Shown: positions 13,688 to 39,816 of the stretch, in pieces | Layout of the letters: each line of letters begins with the position of its first letter | Position numbering within the stretch: position 1 is the stretch's first letter | DNA from: an uncultured Cellvibrionaceae bacterium | GTDB lineage: Bacteria; Pseudomonadota; Gammaproteobacteria; Pseudomonadales; Cellvibrionaceae | NCBI GenBank assembly: GCA_964499225.1 | Contig: CAZCJR010000003.1 | Span: 42,340 to 106,339 of the forward strand | Length of the DNA stretch: 64,000 nt | Direction: 5' to 3' | Position numbers and translations under genes: made by a program | The notes under the pieces: model-generated | Told to the model about the DNA's origin: nothing | What the model saw: only the letters and a program-made list of their open reading frames with translations | Database searches by the model: none

Positions 13688-14822
13688 AGATACTATTAAT
13701 AATGATGATATTGATAGTTTGATAGATTGGTTAAAGACCTATCCAAGACTAACTAAAGGAGAATTGACAATAGAATTCGAAAAAATATGGTCTGAATGGT
13801 TGGGTGTTAAGTATTCAGTTTTTATAAATTCTGGATCATCAGCTAATTTAGCTATGATATATTCCTTACTACAATCAAATAAATTAAAAAATAATAAAAT
13901 AATTGTACCAAGTGTTTCTTGGGTTACTACTGTATCTCCTACTATGCAATTTGGTATGCAACCAATATTATGTGAATGTGATGAAGATACTTTAGGTTTG
14001 GATATTAATCATTTTGAAAAACTTTGTAAAGAACATAATCCATCAGTAGTTATATTAGTTCATGTTTTAGGTTTTCCTAATAAAATGAAGGAAATAATGG
14101 ATATTTGTGATAGATACGGTGTTATTTTATTGGAAGATTCTTGTGAAACCGTAGGTTCATTGTATGATAATAAAAAAACTGGTACATTTGGTTTAATGAG
14201 TTCATTTTCATTTTATTTTGGACATCATTTATCAACGATAGAAGGTGGTATGATATGTACAGATGATAAAGAATTATATAATTTATTATTATCTATTAGA
14301 AGTCATGGCTGGAGTCGAGATTTAGATTTAGAAACTCAAAATAAGTTAAAAGAAGAATATGATATAGATGATTTTAAATCTTTATATACATTTTTTTATC
14401 CTGGATTCAATTTAAGGTCAACTGATTTACAAGCAAAAATAGGTATAGATCAAATGAAAAAAATCGATCAACATAATATAATTAGAAGTAATAATTTTAA
14501 AATATATCATGAGAATATTTTTAATGATTATTGGAAAATAAATCCAGTAGATGGTTTCATATCAAATTTTAATTATCCTATTATACATCCAAAAAAAGAT
14601 GAAATAGTTAAAAAATTAATGGAAAATAATATTGAATGTCGTCCATTAGTTTGTGGTTCAATTGGTAAACAACCATTTTGGAAAAAATTATATGGTGAAA
14701 CTAATTTTGAATTTGCTGATAAAGTAGATGAATTAGGTTTGTATGTACCTAATAATCATCAAATTACAGAAGAAGAATTATTTAGAATAATAGATACTAT
14801 AAATAGTGTCACAAAACAATGA
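13653..14822 (+). CDS. colD: PLP-dependent DegT-family enzyme, GDP-4-keto-6-deoxymannose 3-dehydratase (ColD)-like
   Basis: NSGSSAN and LLEDSCE; [14 protein letters not shown] has His at the usual Schiff-base Lys position; RSHGW; no Fe-S Cys insert of RfbH/E1; adjacent to gmd. Confidence 0.75.
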
Positions 14823-17119
14823 AAAAAATGAAAAAAGCGTTAATAACAGGAATAACAGGACAAGACGGCTCGTACTTGACAGAATTATTATTAAAAAAAG
14901 GATATGAAGTTCACGGTGTTGTGAGAAGAAGTAGTTCCATAAATACAACCAGAATAGATCATATGTATTCTAATTCAAAATTAACATTACATTATGGTGA
15001 TATGTCTGATTCATTGTCATTAGATGGTTTAATTAATTTAATCAAACCGGATGAAATATATAATCTTGCAGCTCAATCTCACGTTCATGTTTCTTTTCAA
15101 ATACCAGAATATACTGGTCAGGTTGATGCTTTGGGAACATTAAAATTGATAGAAGCTGTAAAAAAACATTGTCCTAATTGTAAAATTTATAATGCGACAA
15201 CATCAGAATTATATGGTAAAGTTCAGGAAATACCACAAACCGAAACTACACCATTTTATCCAAGATCGCCATATGGCGTTGCAAAACTATATTCATACTG
15301 GATATCTAAAAATTATAGAGAAAGTTATAATATGTTTATTTCTAATGGTATTTTATTTAATCATGAAACAAGTGCTGATTTTACTCCCATGATTTTTAAA
15401 ATTGATGATGAAATAGATATTAAGCCAATTTCTGAAATAGTTAAATATCATACTAATAAAGGAAAAACATCAATAGATGTAAATAAAAAAGAATATCAAG
15501 GAACAGAAGTTAGTGAAGATTTATATGTTTGGGATAAAAATGATTGGACAAAAGTAAAATTTGCATCTGGATATCCACATGATATAGAAAATGATAATAA
15601 AAATCCTAGATTTTTAATTAGTAAAAATGCTTCATATTTAGCTACATCATCTCATAAATGTATAATGGAAGATGAAAGTGAAAAAACATTTGGTGATATT
15701 GAAATAGGGGATAAAGTGAATTTAATTGAATATCCTATAATTTTAGAAAAAGAAATAGAATTATCAGAAAAAGAGTCAGAATTAATTGGTTTTATTGTAG
15801 GTGATGGTAATTATAATCAAAAAAGAAACAGTCTTAGATTAACAGGAAAAGAGACAAATTTTTTAGAAAAATATTCTAAAATATGGGAAGAACTTGGAGG
15901 TGATGTATATAAATATCAAAGTGTTTCAGGATTTAATGAAAATGAAAAAATATGGCAATATGATTTAAATTCAAATAAAGAATGGAATAAAAAATATTTG
16001 AATGATATATATGATGAATATAATAAAAAAAGAGTACCTAAATTTATATTAAATTCAAATAAAAAAATACAATTGCTTTTTCTTAAAGGTTATAATAATG
16101 CTGATGGTTTAAAATCTAATTCCTGTAAATATGAATTTAAGAATTTTAAAACAAATTCACACACATTATCTGCAGGTCTAATATATCTTTTAAAAAATAC
16201 AACAGGTCAAGACTATAATATTAATATTGAAAGAAAACATAATTTCGGTGAAGAAAGAATATATTATTCAATTAATATTTTAAGTGATTCTAATAAAGGA
16301 CAAAATCATAGAAATAATATAGATAAATATAATTTAGTGTTAAATTTAATAGAAGATGGATATTCACAAAGAAAAATACAAAGAGAAACAGGAATTAGTA
16401 GAACATTCATAAGAAAAATACAAAATGGTTATATACCGAATAATTCACATCATTTGGAAATAAATAAAAACACCATCAAAAAAATAATAGAGATGAAAGA
16501 TTATGATGGTTGGTTTTTTGATTTGGAAACTGAGAGTGGTACTTTTCATGCTGGTGTTGGTCAAGGACATATTCATAATAGTGAAAGAAGAGGTGAAACA
16601 TTTGTAACGAGAAAAATAACAATTGCTATATCTAAAATAGTTAAAGGAACACAAGAAATTTTGGAATTGGGTAATTTAGACTCTAAAAGAGATTGGGGTT
16701 ATGCTCCTGATTATGTTGAGGGTATGTGGAGGATTTTACAATCTGATAAACCAGATGATTTTGTATTAGCGACTAATGAAACACATTCTATTAGAGAATT
16801 TATAGAAGAAAGTGTTGAAGTATATAATGATTGGTTATATTATACCATTCGTGAACATAATTTATGTTTACCGGAATTTGATAATTTCCAATATATAGAT
16901 TTGGAATGGAGAGGTGAAGGAGTTAATGAAGTAGGTTTTTGTAAAAATAGAAATAAAGTAATAATTAAAATAAATCCTAAATATTATAGACCGGCTGAAG
17001 TAGATTTATTGTTAGGTGATCCAACAAAAGCAAAAGATATATTGGGTTGGGAACCAAAAACAAAATTTAAAGAATTAGTTGAAAAAATGATGATTCATGA
17101 TTTAAATTCTAAAAATTAG
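14819..17119 (+). CDS. gmd: GDP-mannose 4,6-dehydratase interrupted by an intein
   Basis: [31 protein letters not shown], and LFNHE|...|[32 protein letters not shown]. Confidence 0.97.
15368..16579 (+). mobile_element. 404-aa intein with LAGLIDADG homing endonuclease and extra HTH, in gmd
   Basis: Inserted between NHE and S of conserved NHES; block B ATSSH, block [10 protein letters not shown], block [11 protein letters not shown], block F WFFDLET, terminal HN/S; first residue is Thr. Confidence 0.93.
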
Positions 17120-17146
17120 TTATTCTCAAAAAGAATAACTAATTTT
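17112..17146. terminator. 15-bp perfect hairpin at the end of gmd
   Basis: aaaattagttattct-caaaa-agaataactaatttt followed by T-rich sequence. Confidence 0.7.
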
Positions 17147-17152
17147 GTTTTT

Positions 17153-17935
17153 ATGAAGAAAGTACATTTAGATAAATTATTACATATTGCTATTGTTGCC
17201 GCCTATGAAGCCGGTGTTGAAATTATTAAAGTAAGAAATAGTGTTGATATCGGTGCTGTTAAAAAGATAGATAAAAGTTATGTAACTGATGCTGATATAA
17301 ATGCAAATAATGTTATAATGTCAGCATTGAAACAAACAGGTATATCAATTATAAGTGAAGAAATTGATAATGATATCAAAAGAAGTAATATTGTTTGGAT
17401 TGTAGATCCATTAGATGGTACATCAGAATTTGTTGCTGGTGGAGAAGAATTCACAGTAAATATAGCCTTGATAGAAAATCGAAAAGTCGTATTAGGTGTA
17501 GTGTATGTTCCAATGACAAAAGAATTATATTTTGCTCATAAATATATTGGTTCATATAAAATAATAGGTGATGATATAGTAAAAGGTATTGATTATTTAA
17601 TAGATAAATCAGTTAAATTACCATATACTAAGACAGAAGTATATACCATCGTTGCCAGTAAATTAAATTTAGATAAGAAAACAAAATTCTTTATTGATAC
17701 TATAAGTGAAGGAAAAGAAGTAGTATATAAAAATAGATCAAGTTCGTTAAAATTTTGTATGATAGCCGAAGGAAATGCCGATATCTATCCAAGATATTCT
17801 TGTATTTTTGAATGGGATACCGCAGCATCTCACGCAATTGTTAAATTTGCTGGAAAAAATATATATACTTTATATGGATATGAATTAACATATAATAAAA
17901 AATATTTAATGAATCCGTATTTCATAGTAAAATAA
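17153..17935 (+). CDS. cysQ: 3'(2'),5'-bisphosphate nucleotidase
   Basis: VTDAD, IISEE, WIVDPLDGT, SSLKFCMIAEG and EWDTAA. Confidence 0.92.
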   Translation: MKKVHLDKLLHIAIVAAYEAGVEIIKVRNSVDIGAVKKIDKSYVTDADINANNVIMSALKQTGISIISEEIDNDIKRSNIVWIVDPLDGTSEFVAGGEEFTVNIALIENRKVVLGVVYVPMTKELYFAHKYIGSYKIIGDDIVKGIDYLIDKSVKLPYTKTEVYTIVASKLNLDKKTKFFIDTISEGKEVVYKNRSSSLKFCMIAEGNADIYPRYSCIFEWDTAASHAIVKFAGKNIYTLYGYELTYNKKYLMNPYFIVK

Positions 17936-36414: not shown

Positions 36415-36552
36415 ATGAAAGTACATAGAAAAGAAAAAATTGATTCTGCTGAGTTCGGTAGATTGAAAGAAATACGATACAATTATCATAAATTTTTATA
36501 TGGTAAATTTAAAAGACGAATTAGAATAAAAAGATTAAAAAATATTAAATAA
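36415..36552 (+). CDS. 45-aa basic hypothetical protein (not in ORF track)
   Basis: ends RIRIKRLKNIK* (motif variant). Confidence 0.5.
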   Translation: MKVHRKEKIDSAEFGRLKEIRYNYHKFLYGKFKRRIRIKRLKNIK

Positions 36553-36602
36553 ACTTTTTTAGACAAATAAAATATAATATATAAATACAAATAAACATTA
36601 AG

Positions 36603-36665
36603 ATGTTATAGATTAATACATACATAAATTACAACAGAAGTCATTGCGGCTTGTACTATACTTGA
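36603..36665 (+). promoter_or_regulatory. Leader ORF with amber codon at position 3 (ML*INTYINYNRSHCGLYYT*)
   Basis: ATG TTA TAG ATT...TGA; overlaps the 5' arm of the hairpin; TAATATATA at 36575-36583. Confidence 0.6.
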
Positions 36666-36695
36666 AAGAGTTGTGCAAGGTGCAATGGCTTTTTT
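36638..36695 (+). terminator. Long GAAA-capped hairpin with U-tract (attenuator-like)
   Basis: aagtcattgc/gcaatggctt, cttgtac/gtgcaag and actt-GAAA-gagt stems with G-U pairs, then 6 T; GC-rich against background. Confidence 0.75.
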
Positions 36696-36735
36696 GCGTT
36701 ATATAAAAAATTAAAAACAAATAAATAAAAATAAG

Positions 36736-37092
36736 ATGAAAATAGAAGTAGAATTAGAAGAAAGATATAAATTAACATTTGAAAATAGTAGTATGTGTAT
36801 GGGACAGTATTATGCAGAAGATGACTGGAGTATTATTGTTTATGGTAGAAGTATTATAGATGATGTATTAGAAATGAAATATCATTATAGATATAGTGAT
36901 TTACAGTATAATGGTGGTGATATAGAAAAAGTAGATGTGATATTATATGATGGTAATATTATTGAAATTCCAAATACGGAAAAAGAATATAAAGAATACA
37001 CAATGTATCAAATATATGAAATGACTTTTAAATCAACAGAAGAATTGAAACAATTATTGAGAGAAGAAAAATTAAATAGAATATTATCATGA
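36736..37092 (+). CDS. Hypothetical protein with C-terminal motif
   Basis: ends LREEKLNRILS*. Confidence 0.75.
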   Translation: MKIEVELEERYKLTFENSSMCMGQYYAEDDWSIIVYGRSIIDDVLEMKYHYRYSDLQYNGGDIEKVDVILYDGNIIEIPNTEKEYKEYTMYQIYEMTFKSTEELKQLLREEKLNRILS

Positions 37093-37304
37093 GTTGGAAA
37101 TGTAGTGTATGTTTTTATAGAGAATCCGGTATGTGTTATAATGATAAATTTGCTATAATAGAAGAAATACCATTGAATAGAAAAGGAGAAAAACTGGAAA
37201 CGGCTATAATAAAATGTGAAAATTATAGCAATAATATTAAAAATAAGAGATTATTAAAATTAAGAGAAGAAAAATTAAATAGAATATTAAAAAAAATAAA
37301 TTAA
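37089..37304 (+). CDS. Cys-rich hypothetical protein with C-terminal motif
   Basis: CSVC...C...C; ends LREEKLNRILKKIN*. Confidence 0.75.
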   Translation: MSWKCSVCFYRESGMCYNDKFAIIEEIPLNRKGEKLETAIIKCENYSNNIKNKRLLKLREEKLNRILKKIN

Positions 37305-37310
37305 GAAAAC

Positions 37311-37685
37311 ATGAATTAGATTAAAAAATTAAGAGTGGTTACACATCGTAACTTAGACTTTGGTCAACAAGCCGTTCAATTAGGACATGCTGGTATTACA
37401 TTTCAACATGAACATCCGGAAATTTCAAAAGATTGGTACACAAATTCCAATTATTTGATATTTTTATCAGTTGAAAATGAAATAGAATTATCAAAATTGA
37501 TTCAGAAATGTAAAGATAAAAATTTAGAACATACAGTATTTATCGAACCGGATTTAAACGATTCAATTACGGCAGTTGCTATTGGACCATCTAATGTCGC
37601 TAGAAAAATTACAGGTCATTTACCAAAAGCGTTTAAAGAGATAAAAATAAATCAAAATTATGAAATCGAAAATAACATTAAGTAA
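37311..37685 (+). CDS. Pth2-like peptidyl-tRNA hydrolase with in-frame TAG at codon 3
   Basis: ATG AAT TAG ATT AAA AAA TTA AGA GTG GTT ACA CAT CGT; GQQAVQLGHA, LIFLSV and FIEPDL...TAVAIGP. Confidence 0.8.
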
Positions 37686-38001
37686 TTTGGAAGACAAATC
37701 AAATAAAAAATTGATGAGTATGATAAATAAGAATAATATCAGAATCAGTAGATTAGAAGATATTATTAAATTTTCAAATGATTTTGATATTGAATTGTGT
37801 GAAGTTCAAAGAAATATGATTAATGATAAAATAAAATTTTATACTGAACAGGTTTATAAAATAACATATTTTATGATATGGAAAAATTATAAAGTTAAAG
37901 ATGAAAATTTTATTTGTTTTTGGGATATTAAAAAAGAAGAAGTTGAAAGATTAAGACAAAAATATAGTAGAGTAAATAAATTTAAAAGAATATTAAAATG
38001 A
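37660..38001 (+). CDS. Hypothetical protein with C-terminal motif
   Basis: ends SRVNKFKRILK*. Confidence 0.7.
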   Translation: MKSKITLSNLEDKSNKKLMSMINKNNIRISRLEDIIKFSNDFDIELCEVQRNMINDKIKFYTEQVYKITYFMIWKNYKVKDENFICFWDIKKEEVERLRQKYSRVNKFKRILK

Positions 38002-38199
38002 AAGAATTAGCAAAAGATATATGTGATAGTATTTCACACAACCTTTATAAACATGAAGATTATTATGATTACACTCAAGGAATGAGACGTTTTAATGATG
38101 ATGAAGAAAAAGAAATTCAAGAACTATATTTTAGAAAAATATGAAAATAGAAAAAGAGAAAATAAATTAAAAAGAATATTAAAGGAGGAAAAATTATGA
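37998..38199 (+). pseudogene. Frameshifted small gene; motif-bearing C-terminus lies in another frame
   Basis: Frame 0 stops at 38144; removing one A near 38113 gives ...DEEKEFKNYILEKYENRKRENKLKRILKEEKL*. Confidence 0.55.
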
Positions 38200-38480
38200 G
38201 TGTAGTAAAACAAAACGAAGTATATGTGACATATGGTAGATTTACAGATAATTCTACTTGTCAAGAGTGTAAAAAACCGGATAAATATTTAGTATTATCT
38301 GGTGGTGGTCAATTATCAAATTTGGAAGGAAATTGTTGTGATGATCATTTGAATTATTTTATAGAAGAAGGTAAAAAAACTTTATTGAAATATAAAAGAA
38401 CAGATATTAAAGTAAAATATCACAAAATAATACTTAGAGAAAATAAATTAAAAAGAATATTAAAGGAGGAAAAATTATGA
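38155..38480 (+). repeat. Perfect 45-bp direct repeat (38155-38199, 38436-38480) flanking one gene
   Basis: agagaaaataaattaaaaagaatattaaaggaggaaaaattatga occurs twice. Confidence 0.95.
38196..38480 (+). CDS. Hypothetical Cys-containing protein with C-terminal motif
   Basis: CQEC...CCDDH; ends LRENKLKRILKEEKL*; AAGGAGG 7 nt upstream. Confidence 0.8.
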   Translation: MSVVKQNEVYVTYGRFTDNSTCQECKKPDKYLVLSGGGQLSNLEGNCCDDHLNYFIEEGKKTLLKYKRTDIKVKYHKIILRENKLKRILKEEKL

Positions 38481-38884
38481 AATTAACAGAAAAAAATTTA
38501 AAAGATTATTTAAAAACAAAAGAAGAAATGGATTATTTGATACATGAACGAATAACGGAGATAACAAAAAAATTAATTGAATATGGTGCATATAGTTTTA
38601 TGAAAAATTGGAGTGTAGATAATATAGAATATGATGAAGACAATGTTTTAGTTACAATATATGAATCATGGGCTTATGGTGGCTACGATTCTTCAAATAT
38701 ATCTTTACCACAAAGTTATTTATATGATGATAATTATGAAGAAAAAATTAAATTAGATTGTGAAAATAGAAAAAAGTTAAAAGAAGAAAATGATATATTG
38801 AATAAAGCGAAGAAAGAAAAAGAAAAAGAAGAAAAGGAAAAAGCTGAATTCATCAGATTAAACCAAAAATTTGGTAAAAAATAA
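38477..38884 (+). CDS. Hypothetical protein
   Basis: 135-aa ORF; AAGGAGG 7 nt upstream. Confidence 0.75.
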   Translation: MKLTEKNLKDYLKTKEEMDYLIHERITEITKKLIEYGAYSFMKNWSVDNIEYDEDNVLVTIYESWAYGGYDSSNISLPQSYLYDDNYEEKIKLDCENRKKLKEENDILNKAKKEKEKEEKEKAEFIRLNQKFGKK

Positions 38885-38901
38885 TTAAAAAGGAGGGTAA
38901 T

Positions 38902-38931
38902 ATGATGTAGATTATTAGAGCACCAACGTAA
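38902..38931 (+). promoter_or_regulatory. SD-led minigene with amber at codon 3 (MM*IIRAPT*)
   Basis: AAGGAGG 38890-38896, then ATG ATG TAG ATT ATT AGA GCA CCA ACG TAA. Confidence 0.55.
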
Positions 38932-38990
38932 TGTTGTTTGATAACACAAAGAATTAAAAAAATTAAAAATAAAAAATAAATAAAAAAATT

Positions 38991-39419
38991 ATGAAAAGAA
39001 TAGAATCAAACAACAGCGTAGAAATATTTAACACAGTTAAAGAAGTGATTAATCACGTAGAAACAATTTTAAAAGACGAAAGATATGAATTATCTGGTAG
39101 TTTAACACAATTCAAAACAATGGATATGATGAAGGTTGTATCAGAATTGGGTGTAAGAGATAAAAAAAGATTAAAAAGAAGATTGAATAAAATTATAAGT
39201 AAAAACACATTAAAGTCAATCAATTCTTTATTAAGATTTTTATCTAAAAAATCTAATATTGATATTGTTAGAATTGATGAACCAAAACATGAAGAAATTC
39301 AAAAATTAAGAAAAGATTGGAAAGTATTACAAGCACAATCAGATGCCGCACTTTTAAAATATAAAAATTTAAAAGGTGATTATTATAAAATAATAATAGA
39401 ACAAAAACAAGCAGCATAA
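38991..39419 (+). CDS. Basic hypothetical protein
   Basis: 142-aa ORF. Confidence 0.7.
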   Translation: MKRIESNNSVEIFNTVKEVINHVETILKDERYELSGSLTQFKTMDMMKVVSELGVRDKKRLKRRLNKIISKNTLKSINSLLRFLSKKSNIDIVRIDEPKHEEIQKLRKDWKVLQAQSDAALLKYKNLKGDYYKIIIEQKQAA

Positions 39420-39423
39420 AAAA

Positions 39424-39474
39424 TTATAGTGTCTGGGACGGATAAACATACTTTATCCGTCCCAGACACTATAA
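39424..39474. repeat. Perfect 23-bp inverted repeat (5-nt loop)
   Basis: ttatagtgtctgggacggataaa-catac-tttatccgtcccagacactataa. Confidence 0.95.
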
Positions 39475-39492: not shown

Positions 39493-39816
39493 ATGAAAAA
39501 TAATATAATAAGAAATAAATATGGTTATGATTGTAATTTGAATAAGAAATACGGTGTTGAGTGGGGTTTATACGGTTATGAGAATGGTATAAAGACAAAA
39601 AATAAAATACATTGGTGTAATTGGAAAAGATATAATACATTATTATCATCGATTCAAGCTTATATGGATTTTACTAAAGATGGCTCTATGTATAGAGTAG
39701 TTGAAATAATCTATGATGAAAGTGAATTTCCAGGATTTTATTCTAAACCATTTGACCTTAAAATTTTAGAACGAGAAAATAAATTAAAAAGAATAAATGA
39801 AAAAAAACCTGAATAA
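39493..39816 (+). CDS. Hypothetical protein with C-terminal motif
   Basis: ends ERENKLKRINEKKPE*. Confidence 0.7.
   Translation: MKNNIIRNKYGYDCNLNKKYGVEWGLYGYENGIKTKNKIHWCNWKRYNTLLSSIQAYMDFTKDGSMYRVVEIIYDESEFPGFYSKPFDLKILERENKLKRINEKKPE

What the first reader, a model, noticed from the sequence alone, without database searches (positions are those of the whole stretch)
38890..38931. Third amber element: SD-led minigene MM*IIRAPT
Seen: AAGGAGG then ATG ATG TAG ATT ATT AGA GCA CCA ACG TAA in the 106-nt gap before gene 38991. Known: arrest peptides such as ApdP/ApdA end in RAPP and ApcA in RAPG. Inference (weak): readthrough yields an IRAP-containing peptide that could stall ribosomes or tune the downstream gene, while without readthrough it is a drop-off minigene that loads the Pth.
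Basis: partly seen in the sequence, partly recalled or inferred. Interest (0 to 1): 0.7.

Follow-up and report, generated by a model that had tools for sequence, protein, structure and literature searches.

The report
Amber-gated leader peptide in a phage
The tiny "MM-stop-IIRAPT" reading frame is real and conserved in more than fifteen related phage lineages, and it most likely lets the next gene be translated only when a phage amber-suppressor tRNA reads through the TAG stop codon, which would be a natural sensor of the genetic-code state.

Summary
AAGGAGG (38890-96) is the strongest ribosome-binding site in an otherwise SD-less 64-kb phage window. It is followed by ATG ATG TAG ATT ATT AGA GCA CCA ACG TAA (38902-38931), 59 nt before gene 38991.

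The element is not chance. The same ORF (M-x-TAG-I-(I/V)-I-R-[A/G]-P-T-stop, or K-x-P-P / R-A-P-P variants) sits upstream of 38991-family genes in about 20 metagenomic loci.
- TAG is always codon 3.
- Ile, Ala, Gly, Pro and Thr codons vary synonymously.
- Indels keep the reading frame.

In every lineage but one, the last codon, the stop and the next ~10 nt are complementary to the start region of the downstream gene. The arm sequences are lineage-specific and co-vary.

Relatives carry tRNA(CUA) amber-suppressor genes next to the locus. A PTH2 peptidyl-tRNA hydrolase gene in the same operon also has a conserved TAG at codon 3 (window 37311).

Best reading: an amber-suppression-gated leader (possibly RAPP-like arrest) peptide. 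A ribosome reaches and melts the masking helix only after TAG is decoded.

All evidence is computational. No tRNA(CUA) lies inside the window, and stalling is inferred.

The parts
38890..38896 (+). Shine-Dalgarno AAGGAGG of the leader ORF, 5 nt before its ATG. It is the strongest SD in the window.
   Evidence: SD-like sequences also precede the leader in L003, L005, L007, L011, L020.
38902..38931 (+). Leader minigene ATG ATG TAG ATT ATT AGA GCA CCA ACG TAA (M M amber I I R A P T stop).
   Evidence: Homologous ORFs are found in ~20 loci.
38908..38910 (+). In-frame amber codon TAG at codon 3, followed by A (TAG ATT). This is the proposed gate.
   Evidence: TAG is codon 3 in all leader homologs. 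tRNA(CUA) genes lie next to the locus in relatives.
38917..38928 (+). AGA GCA CCA ACG = R-A-P-T, a RAPP-like core at the C-terminus of the leader peptide.
   Evidence: Relatives have R-G-P-T, R-A-P-T, R-A-P-P and K-x-P-P, with synonymous codon variation. Motif literature: PMC12992588, PMC7897499.
38926..38942 (+). 5' arm of the long-range helix: ACGT (last sense codon plus the first base of the stop) and TGTTGTTTGAT, with the AA of the stop codon bulged out.
   Evidence: MFE fold -16.6 kcal/mol, z = -3.0. It is the best partner of the 3' arm within +/-700 nt. Covariation with L011.
38943..38990 (+). A-rich spacer looped out by the helix. It contains the SD-less translation initiation region of gene 38991.
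39005..39019 (+). 3' arm of the helix, ATCAAACAACAGCGT (+15 to +29 of gene 38991; codons 5-10).
   Evidence: The TCAAACAACAGCGTAGA stretch is invariant at synonymous sites in four homologs. L011 keeps ACAACAAC in a different reading frame.
38991..39419 (+). Regulated gene: a 142-aa helical protein of unknown function (the '38991 family').
   Evidence: Homologs lie downstream of the leader in 17 loci (window, L003, L005, L007, L008, L011/L012, L015, L019, L020 and eight loci). In 5 lineages a tRNA(CUA) follows the homolog. AF2 pLDDT 80; no Pfam, PHROG, NCBIfam or PDB match.
37311..37685 (+). PTH2 peptidyl-tRNA hydrolase gene of the same operon. It starts ATG AAT TAG ATT AAA..., the same M-x-amber module fused in frame.
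   Evidence: The TAG is conserved at codon 3 (codon 5 in L008) in L003, L004, L005, L007, L008, L009, L011, L015.
36603..36696 (+). Third copy of the module: ATG TTA TAG ATT AAT... (ORF to TGA at 36665). It reads into the 5' arm of a strong hairpin followed by a U run, upstream of the first gene of the operon (36736). Candidate amber-gated transcription attenuator.
   Evidence: The L003 homolog keeps the module, and its hairpin stem differs in sequence yet still folds (-31.6 vs -31.5 kcal/mol).

Best explanation
The minigene is a translated regulatory leader ORF whose third codon is an amber stop. It works as a sensor of amber suppression.

OFF state: without a tRNA that reads UAG, ribosomes loaded by the strong SD terminate (or drop off) after two codons at 38908-10. 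That is about 16 nt upstream of a helix formed between the leader's last codon/stop/next ~10 nt (38926-42) and codons 5-10 of gene 38991 (39005-19). The helix stays closed and hinders initiation on the SD-less gene.

ON state: when a phage amber-suppressor tRNA(CUA) decodes the TAG, the ribosome continues through I-I-R-A-P-T to the TAA. The R-A/G-P core resembles RAPP/RGPP arrest motifs and probably makes the ribosome dwell there. The ribosome then sits on the 5' arm and melts it, freeing the start region so the 38991-family protein is made.

The same M-x-amber module gates the phage PTH2 gene (37311). It probably also gates an operon-leader terminator (36603). The operon would therefore be tied to the switch to amber suppression.

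Shown here: conservation of the ORF, of the TAG and of the peptide motif; the lineage-specific complementary arms; the linkage to tRNA(CUA) and PTH2.

Inferred: that TAG is decoded in this phage, that the ribosome stalls, and that opening the helix activates translation.
For: 1. Conservation. The ORF is present upstream of 38991-family genes in L003, L005, L007, L008, L011/12, L015, L019, L020 and in 11 more IMG/VR loci. Flanking proteins are only 30-72% identical.

2. Translation past the TAG.
- TAG is codon 3 in all homologs.
- Codon 2 varies freely, while I, R/K and P are kept.
- Synonymous codons are seen for Thr (ACG/ACA/ACT), Pro (CCA/CCC/CCT), Gly (GGA/GGT), Ala (GCA/GCC) and Ile (ATT/ATC/ATA).
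- The distance from TAG to the Pro codon is 6, 9, 12, 15 or 21 nt, always a multiple of 3.
- 14 of 36 hits to a pattern that did not specify ATG have ATG exactly 6 nt upstream.

3. Helix.
- Window MFE has z = -3.0.
- The stop-region segment pairs with the downstream start region better than local control windows in 10 loci (Fisher 5e-14) and in 6 further lineages (2e-5).
- The arm sequences differ between lineages but stay complementary. The partners are +15..+29 of the ORF, the AUG itself, the region upstream of the AUG, or (L014) the SD GAGGTGAT.
- 4 of 10 pairs change on both sides between the window and L011.
- The 3' arm is kept in a different reading frame in L011.

4. Suppressor linkage. 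tRNA(CUA) genes lie next to the module in L009/10, L011, L015, L018-20, L025, L043 and L052.

5. The SD is the strongest in a window where 102 of 104 genes lack one, and gene 38991 has none.

6. Literature. RAPP and RGPP are versatile arrest cores. After R-A-P, Thr is among the best A-site residues after Pro (PMC12992588, PMC7897499).
Against: - No tRNA, and so no tRNA(CUA), is found in the 64-kb window or in the closest relatives L003, L005, L007. Decoding of TAG in this phage is therefore assumed from relatives.
- All evidence is comparative. There are no expression or ribosome data; the only runs holding the sequence at high share are DNA.
- Many arms are AU-rich, and individual p-values are weak in some loci (0.05-0.17). 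L023 pairs outside the tested window. Loci are not phylogenetically independent.
- L004 and L018 have the gene without the leader. L004 still keeps the 3'-arm sequence, so that stretch has some further constraint.
- Published RAPP arrest needs an N-terminal adjacent region and an Arg (PMC12992588). Here the nascent chain is only 7-8 residues, and three lineages have Lys (K-x-P-P).
- ATT follows TAG in every leader, which also fits reinitiation at AUU.
Confidence: 0.6

Rival explanations
1. Termination-reinitiation without suppression. Ribosomes translate the two-codon ORF, terminate at TAG and restart at the adjacent ATT. They make (f)M-I-R-A-P-T, and PTH2 starting at the ATT. The TAG would then tune reinitiation rather than sense a suppressor tRNA.
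For: ATT directly follows TAG in all leaders and in 8 of 9 PTH2 modules. No tRNA(CUA) is in the window. The helix-melting step would work the same way.
Against: - The PTH2 gene of L011 has TAG AAC, with no ATT.
- The modules are physically linked to tRNA(CUA) genes in at least 9 lineages.
- AUU is a poor start codon.
- An A after UAG is a context known to favour suppression (own knowledge: Bossi 1983; Miller and Albertini 1983).
Confidence: 0.12
2. A bar-like two-codon minigene. Its only function is to produce fMet-X-tRNA that drops off and sequesters tRNA or loads peptidyl-tRNA hydrolase. The sequence after the TAG is untranslated.
For: SD, ATG, one sense codon and a stop is literally the architecture of the lambda bar minigenes (own knowledge). 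A PTH2 gene lies in the same operon.
Against: - Codon 2 is not conserved, so no specific tRNA is targeted.
- Codons after the TAG show amino-acid-level conservation with synonymous changes and frame-preserving indels.
- PTH2 is itself amber-gated.
Confidence: 0.07
3. An RNA-only element. The conserved sequence is a structured RNA or a protein/sRNA-binding site (for example an operator for the 38991-family protein), and the ORF is incidental.
For: A long-range helix with covariation is present. Some lineages have direct plus inverted repeats in the spacer (L008, L025, L043, L052) that could bind a dimeric protein.
Against: - Within the ORF the variable positions are third codon positions. Pro is CCA/CCC/CCT and Thr is ACG/ACA/ACT, so no fixed RNA motif is kept there.
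- ATG, TAG and the stop keep one frame despite indels of 3, 6 and 9 nt.
- No Rfam family matches.
Confidence: 0.07
4. An evolutionary relic. It would be a decayed copy of the repeated gene-junction cassette (..AGAATATTAAAGGAGGAAAAATTATGA..) or of the PTH2 5' end, with no function.
For: The SD-ATG part resembles the junction repeat that precedes genes 38196 and 38477. The M-x-TAG-ATT start resembles the PTH2 start.
Against: It is retained with its peptide motif and a matching anti-TIR arm across lineages whose neighbouring proteins are 30-70% identical, in contigs of 17-429 kb from many environments.
Confidence: 0.03
5. The 9-residue peptide is itself the product (a signalling or inhibitory micropeptide). 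Its position upstream of 38991 reflects operon membership only.
For: The peptide sequence is conserved.
Against: It explains neither the obligatory amber codon at position 3 nor the co-varying complementarity between the stop region and the next gene's start region. The peptide has no export signal, and its length and C-terminus vary (7-15 codons).
Confidence: 0.04

Closest known systems
Leader-peptide translational attenuation (ermC/ermB, cat and cmlA leaders)
   Same: A short leader ORF with its own RBS. A ribosome held at the 3' end of the leader opens a helix that masks the translation initiation region of the next gene.
   Different: In those systems the inducer is an antibiotic bound in the ribosome tunnel. 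Here the proposed input is decoding of an in-frame UAG at codon 3, with no drug involved. The masked region varies by lineage: +15..+29 of the ORF, the AUG, the region upstream of it, or the SD.
RAPP/RGPP-type ribosome arrest peptides (ApdA, ApdP, ApcA; SecM RAGP)
   Same: A C-terminal R-[A/G]-P core next to the end of a small ORF upstream of a regulated gene. L014 has exactly R-A-P-P. Thr is a permissive A-site residue after R-A-P (PMC7897499, PMC12992588, PMC10951233).
   Different: The peptide has only 9 codons, with no membrane or secretory domain and no force-sensing. The fourth residue is Thr in most lineages, and three lineages have Lys instead of Arg. An amber codon sits inside the ORF. 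Arrest has not been demonstrated.
Stop-codon recoding in phages (code 15, TAG->Gln) and 'code-change modules' (Borges et al., bioRxiv 10.1101/2021.08.26.457843)
   Same: A phage-encoded suppressor tRNA(CUA), with in-frame TAG used to delay expression of particular genes until suppression is on.
   Different: There, TAG is spread through many late, structural and lysis genes. Here, reading TAG as sense does not raise coding density (0.939 vs 0.942). The only clean in-frame TAGs are at codon 3 of a leader ORF and of PTH2, which makes them dedicated gates. The environment is groundwater/freshwater rather than gut.
Lambda bar minigenes (SD-AUG-AUA-stop)
   Same: A strong SD and a two-codon ORF ended by a stop. 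There is a functional connection with peptidyl-tRNA hydrolase.
   Different: bar toxicity depends on a specific last sense codon and its tRNA. Here that codon is free to vary, and the sequence after the stop is conserved as codons.
prfB (RF2) autoregulatory in-frame UGA
   Same: An in-frame stop codon near the 5' end of a gene reports on the cell's capacity to terminate or decode that stop codon.
   Different: prfB is resolved by a +1 frameshift and senses RF2. Here no frameshift is needed, the proposed signal is suppressor tRNA (or RF1 competition), and one copy acts through a separate leader ORF.
Engineered 'Uaa transcriptional switch': TAG placed in tna/trp leader peptides (reviewed in PMC6412442, section 6)
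   Same: [quoted passage not shown]
   Different: That is a synthetic construct acting on Rho/rut-dependent transcription. This would be a natural counterpart acting mainly on translation initiation. The 36603 copy may act on an intrinsic terminator.

Membership tests
Leader-peptide translational attenuators (erm/cat type) | Short ORF with its own ribosome-binding site immediately upstream of the regulated gene. | tested here: met
   SD AAGGAGG plus a 9-codon ORF, 59 nt before gene 38991. The same arrangement occurs in ~20 loci.
Leader-peptide translational attenuators (erm/cat type) | RNA helix that sequesters the downstream initiation region and overlaps the mRNA covered by a ribosome at the 3' end of the leader. 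| tested here: met
   Window helix 38926-42 x 39005-19. Lineage-specific complementary arms in 15 of 16 lineages. 4 of 10 pairs are compensatory.
Leader-peptide translational attenuators (erm/cat type) | Signal-dependent ribosome stalling on the leader that induces the downstream gene. | not testable with these tools
   Needs toeprinting or reporter assays with and without tRNA(CUA).
RAPP-like arrest peptides | C-terminal core R-A/G-P followed by Pro (or a permissive residue) in the A site. | tested here: inconclusive
   The window has R-A-P-T. Most relatives have R-G-P-T, L014 has R-A-P-P, and L008, L019 and L020 have K-x-P-P. Thr is permissive in ApcA and ApdP. Arg mutants lose arrest.
RAPP-like arrest peptides | An adjacent N-terminal region in the exit tunnel is required for arrest. 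| tested here: inconclusive
   Only 4-8 residues precede the core. Conserved Ile/Val residues directly precede R. Sufficiency is unknown.
RAPP-like arrest peptides | Monitoring-substrate architecture: an N-terminal signal or TM segment, with arrest released by the localisation machinery. | tested here: not met
   The peptide has 9 codons and no hydrophobic segment.
RAPP-like arrest peptides | Demonstrated elongation arrest with peptidyl-tRNA(Pro) in the P site. | not testable with these tools
   Biochemical assay required.
Lambda bar-type toxic minigenes | SD followed by AUG, one sense codon and a stop. | tested here: met
   AAGGAGG-N5-ATG ATG TAG.
Lambda bar-type toxic minigenes | Conserved last sense codon that defines the tRNA sequestered as peptidyl-tRNA. 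| tested here: not met
   Codon 2 is ATG, TTA, ACA, AAA, AAT, AAC, ACT, AGA or AAG in different loci.
Lambda bar-type toxic minigenes | Toxicity in Pth-limited hosts. | not testable with these tools
   Genetic test required.
Stop-codon-recoded (TAG-reassigned) phages | Phage-encoded suppressor tRNA with anticodon CUA. | tested here: inconclusive
   None in the window or in L003, L005, L007. Present beside the homologous locus in L009/10, L011, L015, L018, L019, L020, L025, L043, L052. About 42 kb of the source contig lies outside the window.
Stop-codon-recoded (TAG-reassigned) phages | Many in-frame TAG codons in (late) genes, with coding density rising when TAG is read as sense. | tested here: not met
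   Coding density is 0.939 under the standard code and 0.942 with TAG as sense. The only clean in-frame TAGs are codon 3 of PTH2 and of the leader.

The most novel reading that the evidence does not exclude
The leader, the amber-gated PTH2 gene, the 38991-family gene and the adjacent tRNA(CUA) form a natural 'genetic-code-state' switch. A little amber suppression opens the leader-controlled helix, and the 38991-family protein then reinforces or exploits suppression. It could do so by antagonising RF1 or aiding the suppressor tRNA. Alternatively, translation of its ORF could prevent polarity on the co-transcribed tRNA(CUA). Either way this gives positive feedback that commits the infected cell to a changed code. 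Here TAG would serve purely as a regulatory signal rather than as a reassigned codon spread through genes.
Probability: 0.3. Interest if true: 0.9.

Novelty: new variant of a known kind. Interest (0 to 1): 0.82.

Why it matters
Phage stop-codon recoding is thought to time late gene expression, but no dedicated cis-acting sensor of suppression has been described. None turned up in the full-text searches. This element would be such a sensor: a 9-codon leader that reports whether UAG is being decoded and passes that information to the next gene.

It would also extend RAPP/RGPP-like motifs to very short phage leaders and to functions unrelated to protein localisation. It links a phage PTH2 hydrolase and an uncharacterised, suppressor-tRNA-associated protein family to code switching. 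It is a natural counterpart of engineered amber-codon leader switches.

The system is compact (about 130 nt) and can be tested directly in E. coli suppressor and non-suppressor strains.

Tried and rejected
- tRNA and Rfam scans of the window found nothing.
- Megablast of 36-42 kb against GenBank phages found no match. The ligase protein search showed only distant jumbo-phage relatives.
- Scans of viral contigs with the two flanking proteins found nothing. A strict DNA pattern also found nothing.
- Three look-ups aimed at DNA beyond the window ends, to search for a tRNA(CUA), failed or returned only short contigs.
- I first took the Gln at the TAG position in PTH2 homologs (P0006, P0010, P0014 and others) as evidence that TAG means Gln. 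I rejected this when L008 showed that P0006's 'Q' is a TAG translated by the depositor's pipeline. The inserted amino acid is unknown.
- L007 lacks the GTTGTTTGA arm, so I doubted the helix. L007 turned out to pair a different stop-region sequence with the AUG region, and this held in other lineages.
- TAG readthrough fusing GDP-mannose dehydratase (14819-17119) to the in-frame inositol monophosphatase (17153-) was considered. I judged it a coincidence because these are two complete, unrelated enzymes.
- Fold and profile searches for the 38991 protein gave no hits. L014's downstream gene is not detectably homologous.
- Reads and contigs from other metagenomes gave no informative microdiversity. 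The sequence was identical apart from a 1-nt deletion in the SD G-run in one run.
- MAFFT misaligned the arms of L011. I therefore re-aligned the arms alone with artificial G/C anchors before counting pairs.

Full report
**What is there**

The window is a 23.9% GC phage contig from a groundwater metagenome. Its recognisable genes are phage-like: T4 gp30.3-like, SLT, HNH, Dam methylase, NAD-ligase, 5'-3' exonuclease and PTH2.

- gene 38477-38884 ends in TAA;
- AAGGAGG lies at 38890-96;
- the codons are ATG ATG TAG ATT ATT AGA GCA CCA ACG TAA at 38902-38931;
- a 59-nt A-rich spacer follows, then gene 38991-39419.

The genome is essentially SD-less. Across 104 predicted genes the median SD/anti-SD energy is +0.5 kcal/mol, and only two genes reach -6 kcal/mol or better. 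The minigene has the best SD in the window (-12.1) and gene 38991 has none (+1.6). TAG ends only 2 of 104 genes.

**Conservation**

Exact and homology look-ups of the downstream protein gave contigs from other samples. Pattern and profile scans of IMG/VR and GTDB gave more.

The leader ORFs found:

| Locus | Leader peptide (* = TAG) |
|---|---|
| window | M M * I I R A P T |
| L003 | M L * I R G P T |
| L005 | M T * I I R G P T |
| L007 | M M * I I R G P T |
| L011/12 | M K * I I R G P T |
| L015 | M K * I K I T I R G P T Y L F |
| L014 | M N * I I R A P P |
| L008 | M N * I I K I P P |
| L019 | M T * I K P P |
| L020 | M T * I K Q P P |
| L023 | M T * I R G P T |
| L025/40 | M K * I I R G P T |
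| L028/33/47/49/53 | M R * I V I R G P T |
| L043 | M M * I I R G P T |
| L052 | M R * I I R A P T |
| L054 | M K * I V I R G P T |

Patterns in this set:
- TAG is always codon 3 and is always followed by ATT. Codon 2 is unconstrained.
- The conserved residues use different synonymous codons: Thr ACG/ACA/ACT, Pro CCA/CCC/CCT, Gly GGA/GGT, Ala GCA/GCC, Ile ATT/ATC/ATA.
- The TAG-to-Pro distance takes the values 6, 9, 12, 15 and 21 nt, always in frame.
- 14 of 36 hits to a pattern that did not include the ATG have ATG exactly two codons before the TAG.

This is the signature of a translated peptide that includes the part after the amber codon. It also shows selection to keep the amber codon itself.

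The neighbouring proteins are only 30-72% identical, and the host contigs range from 17 to 429 kb. Two homologous loci (L004, L018) lack the leader.

**The helix**

In the window the MFE fold pairs ACGU (38926-29) and UGUUGUUUGAU (38932-42) with AUCAAACAACA-GCGU (39005-19). The 5' arm is the last sense codon, the U of the stop codon and the next 11 nt, with the two A's of the stop bulged out. The 3' arm is codons 5-10 of gene 38991. The fold is -16.6 kcal/mol with z = -3.0, and this is the best partner within +/-700 nt.

L007 at first seemed to contradict this, because it lacks that arm. There, however, CAUAAUUUUAAUUUA at the leader stop pairs with UAAAUUUAAAAUUAUG at the next gene's AUG. The same principle holds elsewhere, each time with different sequences:

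| Locus | 5' arm (leader stop region) | 3' arm (next gene's start region) |
|---|---|---|
| L011 | GTTGTTGTCA | TGACAACAAC |
| L015 | TTGTTTTAAATT | AATTTAAAACAA |
| L020 | CATAATTATT | AATAATTATG |
| L008 | CCGTAATC | GATTATGG |
| L014 | ATCACCTT | GAGGTGAT (the SD) |
| L025 | CTTAAGTTTT | AAAACTTAA |
| L043 | CTTAAGTTTA | TAAACTTAAG |
| L052 | CTTAAAGTTTATT | AATAAACTTTAA |
| L028/L054 | CTTAATATTTT | AAAATATTAA |
| L023 | TGTTATTAT | ATAATAACA |

I compared the stop-region segment against all other 24-nt windows of each locus. It is among the best binders of the downstream start region (per-locus p from 0.0009 to 0.17). Fisher combination gives 5e-14 for ten loci and 2e-5 for six further lineages. 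The loci are not fully independent and many arms are AU-rich, so these numbers overstate the case.

Between the window type and L011, four of ten pairs change on both sides. 97.5% of cells are paired, against 20-60% when one arm is slid. In L011 the 3' arm ACAACAAC is read as Thr-Thr-Thr rather than Ser-Asn-Asn. That points to an RNA-level constraint.

A ribosome stopped at the TAG (P site 38905) would cover mRNA to roughly 38920 and leave the arm free. A ribosome at Pro8, Thr9 or the stop would sit on the arm. This step is inferred from standard ribosome footprint dimensions.

**The amber system**

The same module heads the PTH2 gene: ATG AAT TAG ATT AAA AAA TTA... at 37311. No conserved alternative start follows it. 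The TAG is kept in L003, L004, L005, L007, L008 (codon 5), L009, L011 (TAG AAC) and L015.

A third copy (36603, ATG TTA TAG ATT AAT...) lies just upstream of a -31.5 kcal/mol hairpin with a U run (z = -4.7) and reads into its 5' arm. Both the module and the hairpin are conserved in L003, whose stem differs in sequence yet folds equally well. ATGNNNTAGATT occurs 7 times against 2.6 expected. The three + strand copies in 36.6-38.9 kb are the only ones at ORF starts.

Relatives encode tRNA(CUA) genes directly beside these modules:
- upstream of PTH2 in L009/L010;
- 30-620 nt downstream of the 38991-family gene in L011, L015, L018, L019, L020;
- just upstream of the leader in L043 (two copies), L025 and L052 (two copies).

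L008 and L014 have tRNA-like cloverleaves with a CUUCUAAAC loop that the tRNA finders do not call.

Reading TAG as sense does not merge or extend genes elsewhere (coding density 0.939 vs 0.942). TAG is therefore used here as a sparse regulatory gate, not as a generally reassigned codon.

No tRNA lies in the window or in its closest relatives. About 42 kb of the source contig is outside the window and could not be fetched.

**Comparison with known systems**

The architecture (RBS-bearing leader ORF plus a start-region-masking helix under the leader's 3' end) is that of erm/cat translational attenuators. I count it as working like them.

The R-[A/G]-P core recalls RAPP/RGPP arrest peptides. These cores are versatile and depleted from proteomes, and after R-A-P the best A-site residues are Pro, then Cys, Thr, Asn and Ser (PMC12992588, PMC7897499, PMC10951233). 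Membership is not established, for three reasons:
- the nascent chain is very short;
- three lineages have Lys;
- there is no localisation domain.

The P-P-stop variants could slow termination by another route.

The literal bar-minigene architecture is present, but its defining conserved sense codon is not.

The closest conceptual precedents are the in-frame UGA of prfB, the 'code-change modules' of recoded gut phages (bioRxiv 10.1101/2021.08.26.457843) and synthetic TAG-containing tna/trp leaders (PMC6412442). Six full-text searches found no description of a natural amber-gated leader peptide (plus the RAPP search).

**Verdict**

The best-supported explanation is an amber-suppression-gated leader, possibly an arrest peptide, that unmasks the start region of an uncharacterised gene associated with suppressor tRNAs (confidence about 0.6).

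Main rivals are reinitiation at the ATT without suppression, a pure drop-off minigene, and an RNA-only element.

What remains inferred: decoding of UAG in this particular phage, ribosome dwelling on the R-A-P-T-stop sequence, the activating direction of the switch, and the function of the regulated protein.

Noticed in passing
window 37311-37685: The PTH2 peptidyl-tRNA hydrolase gene starts ATG AAT TAG ATT.... The TAG at codon 3 is conserved in relatives (codon 5 in L008). In L004 and L007 the same TAG is also the stop codon of the in-frame upstream 125-aa gene, so readthrough could give a fusion protein.
   Followed up: yes
window 36540-36735 (homolog L003 64-244): A conserved block AATAAACTTTTTTAGAC..TATAATATATAA is followed by ATG TTA TAG ATT AAT.... 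That ORF reads into a -31.5 kcal/mol hairpin with a U run, ahead of the first gene of the operon. It is a candidate amber-gated transcription attenuator or a small RNA. The simple promoter/terminator scan did not call it.
   Followed up: partly
window, e.g. 37048-37092, 37262-37304, 37968-38001, 38154-38199, 38435-38480, 39773-39816, 26.4-27.0 kb, 45.4-53.6 kb: Eleven of 111 predicted small proteins, all on the + strand, end in a C-terminal (E/N)KL(K/N/E)RIL motif, against 0.12 expected. At the DNA level this is a repeated junction cassette (AGAGAAAATAAATTAAAAAGAATATTAAAGGAGGAAAAATTATGA) that overlaps the next gene's start. It is also seen in L003, L007 and L011. Its function is unknown; it could be a protein tag, a recombination site or a coupling element.
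   Followed up: partly
window 39424-39474: A perfect 23-bp inverted repeat (TTATAGTGTCTGGGACGGATAAA / TTTATCCGTCCCAGACACTATAA) lies right after gene 38991. In several relatives a tRNA(CUA) gene occupies this position. It looks like a bidirectional terminator.
   Followed up: no
window 14819-17935: GDP-mannose 4,6-dehydratase carries a LAGLIDADG/HTH insert (a likely intein). It ends in one of the two TAG stops of the window and is in frame with the following inositol monophosphatase gene, with 11 sense codons between them. I judged this a coincidence, but readthrough would fuse the two.
   Followed up: partly
window 37998-38199: The 48-aa ORF 37998-38144 is followed, in the +1 frame, by a 35-codon ORF (38095-38199) that carries the KLKRILKEEKL tail. 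The overlap region holds several short A runs. This could be a frameshifted gene, a programmed shift or a sequencing error.
   Followed up: no
L008 1446-1933: A GOLLD RNA (Rfam RF02032, 156.8 bits) with an embedded tRNA-Lys lies immediately upstream of the tRNA(CUA)-like element and the amber-gated PTH2 gene of a relative.
   Followed up: no
L052 3364-3723; L043 605-830; L052 11205-12112: One relative encodes a tmRNA. Two relatives carry two tRNA(CUA) genes flanking a tRNA-Cys, right next to the PTH2 gene and the leader.
   Followed up: no
window, whole: The genome is almost free of Shine-Dalgarno sequences (102 of 104 genes) and TAG is rare as a stop (2 of 104). This suggests a host with SD-independent initiation, and it makes the three AAGGAGG sites at 38182-38896 stand out.
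   Followed up: partly
L008 2648-2700; L025, L043, L052 spacers: In several lineages the spacer between the leader and the gene holds two direct copies of an 8-12-nt word followed by its inverted complement (for example CATAGACA, CATAGACA, TGTCTATG). This could be an inner hairpin that scaffolds the long-range helix, or a protein operator.
   Followed up: no
window 38895 in run X5: A contig from another groundwater metagenome is identical over the leader except for a one-base deletion in the G run of the SD (AAGGAGGG).
   Followed up: no
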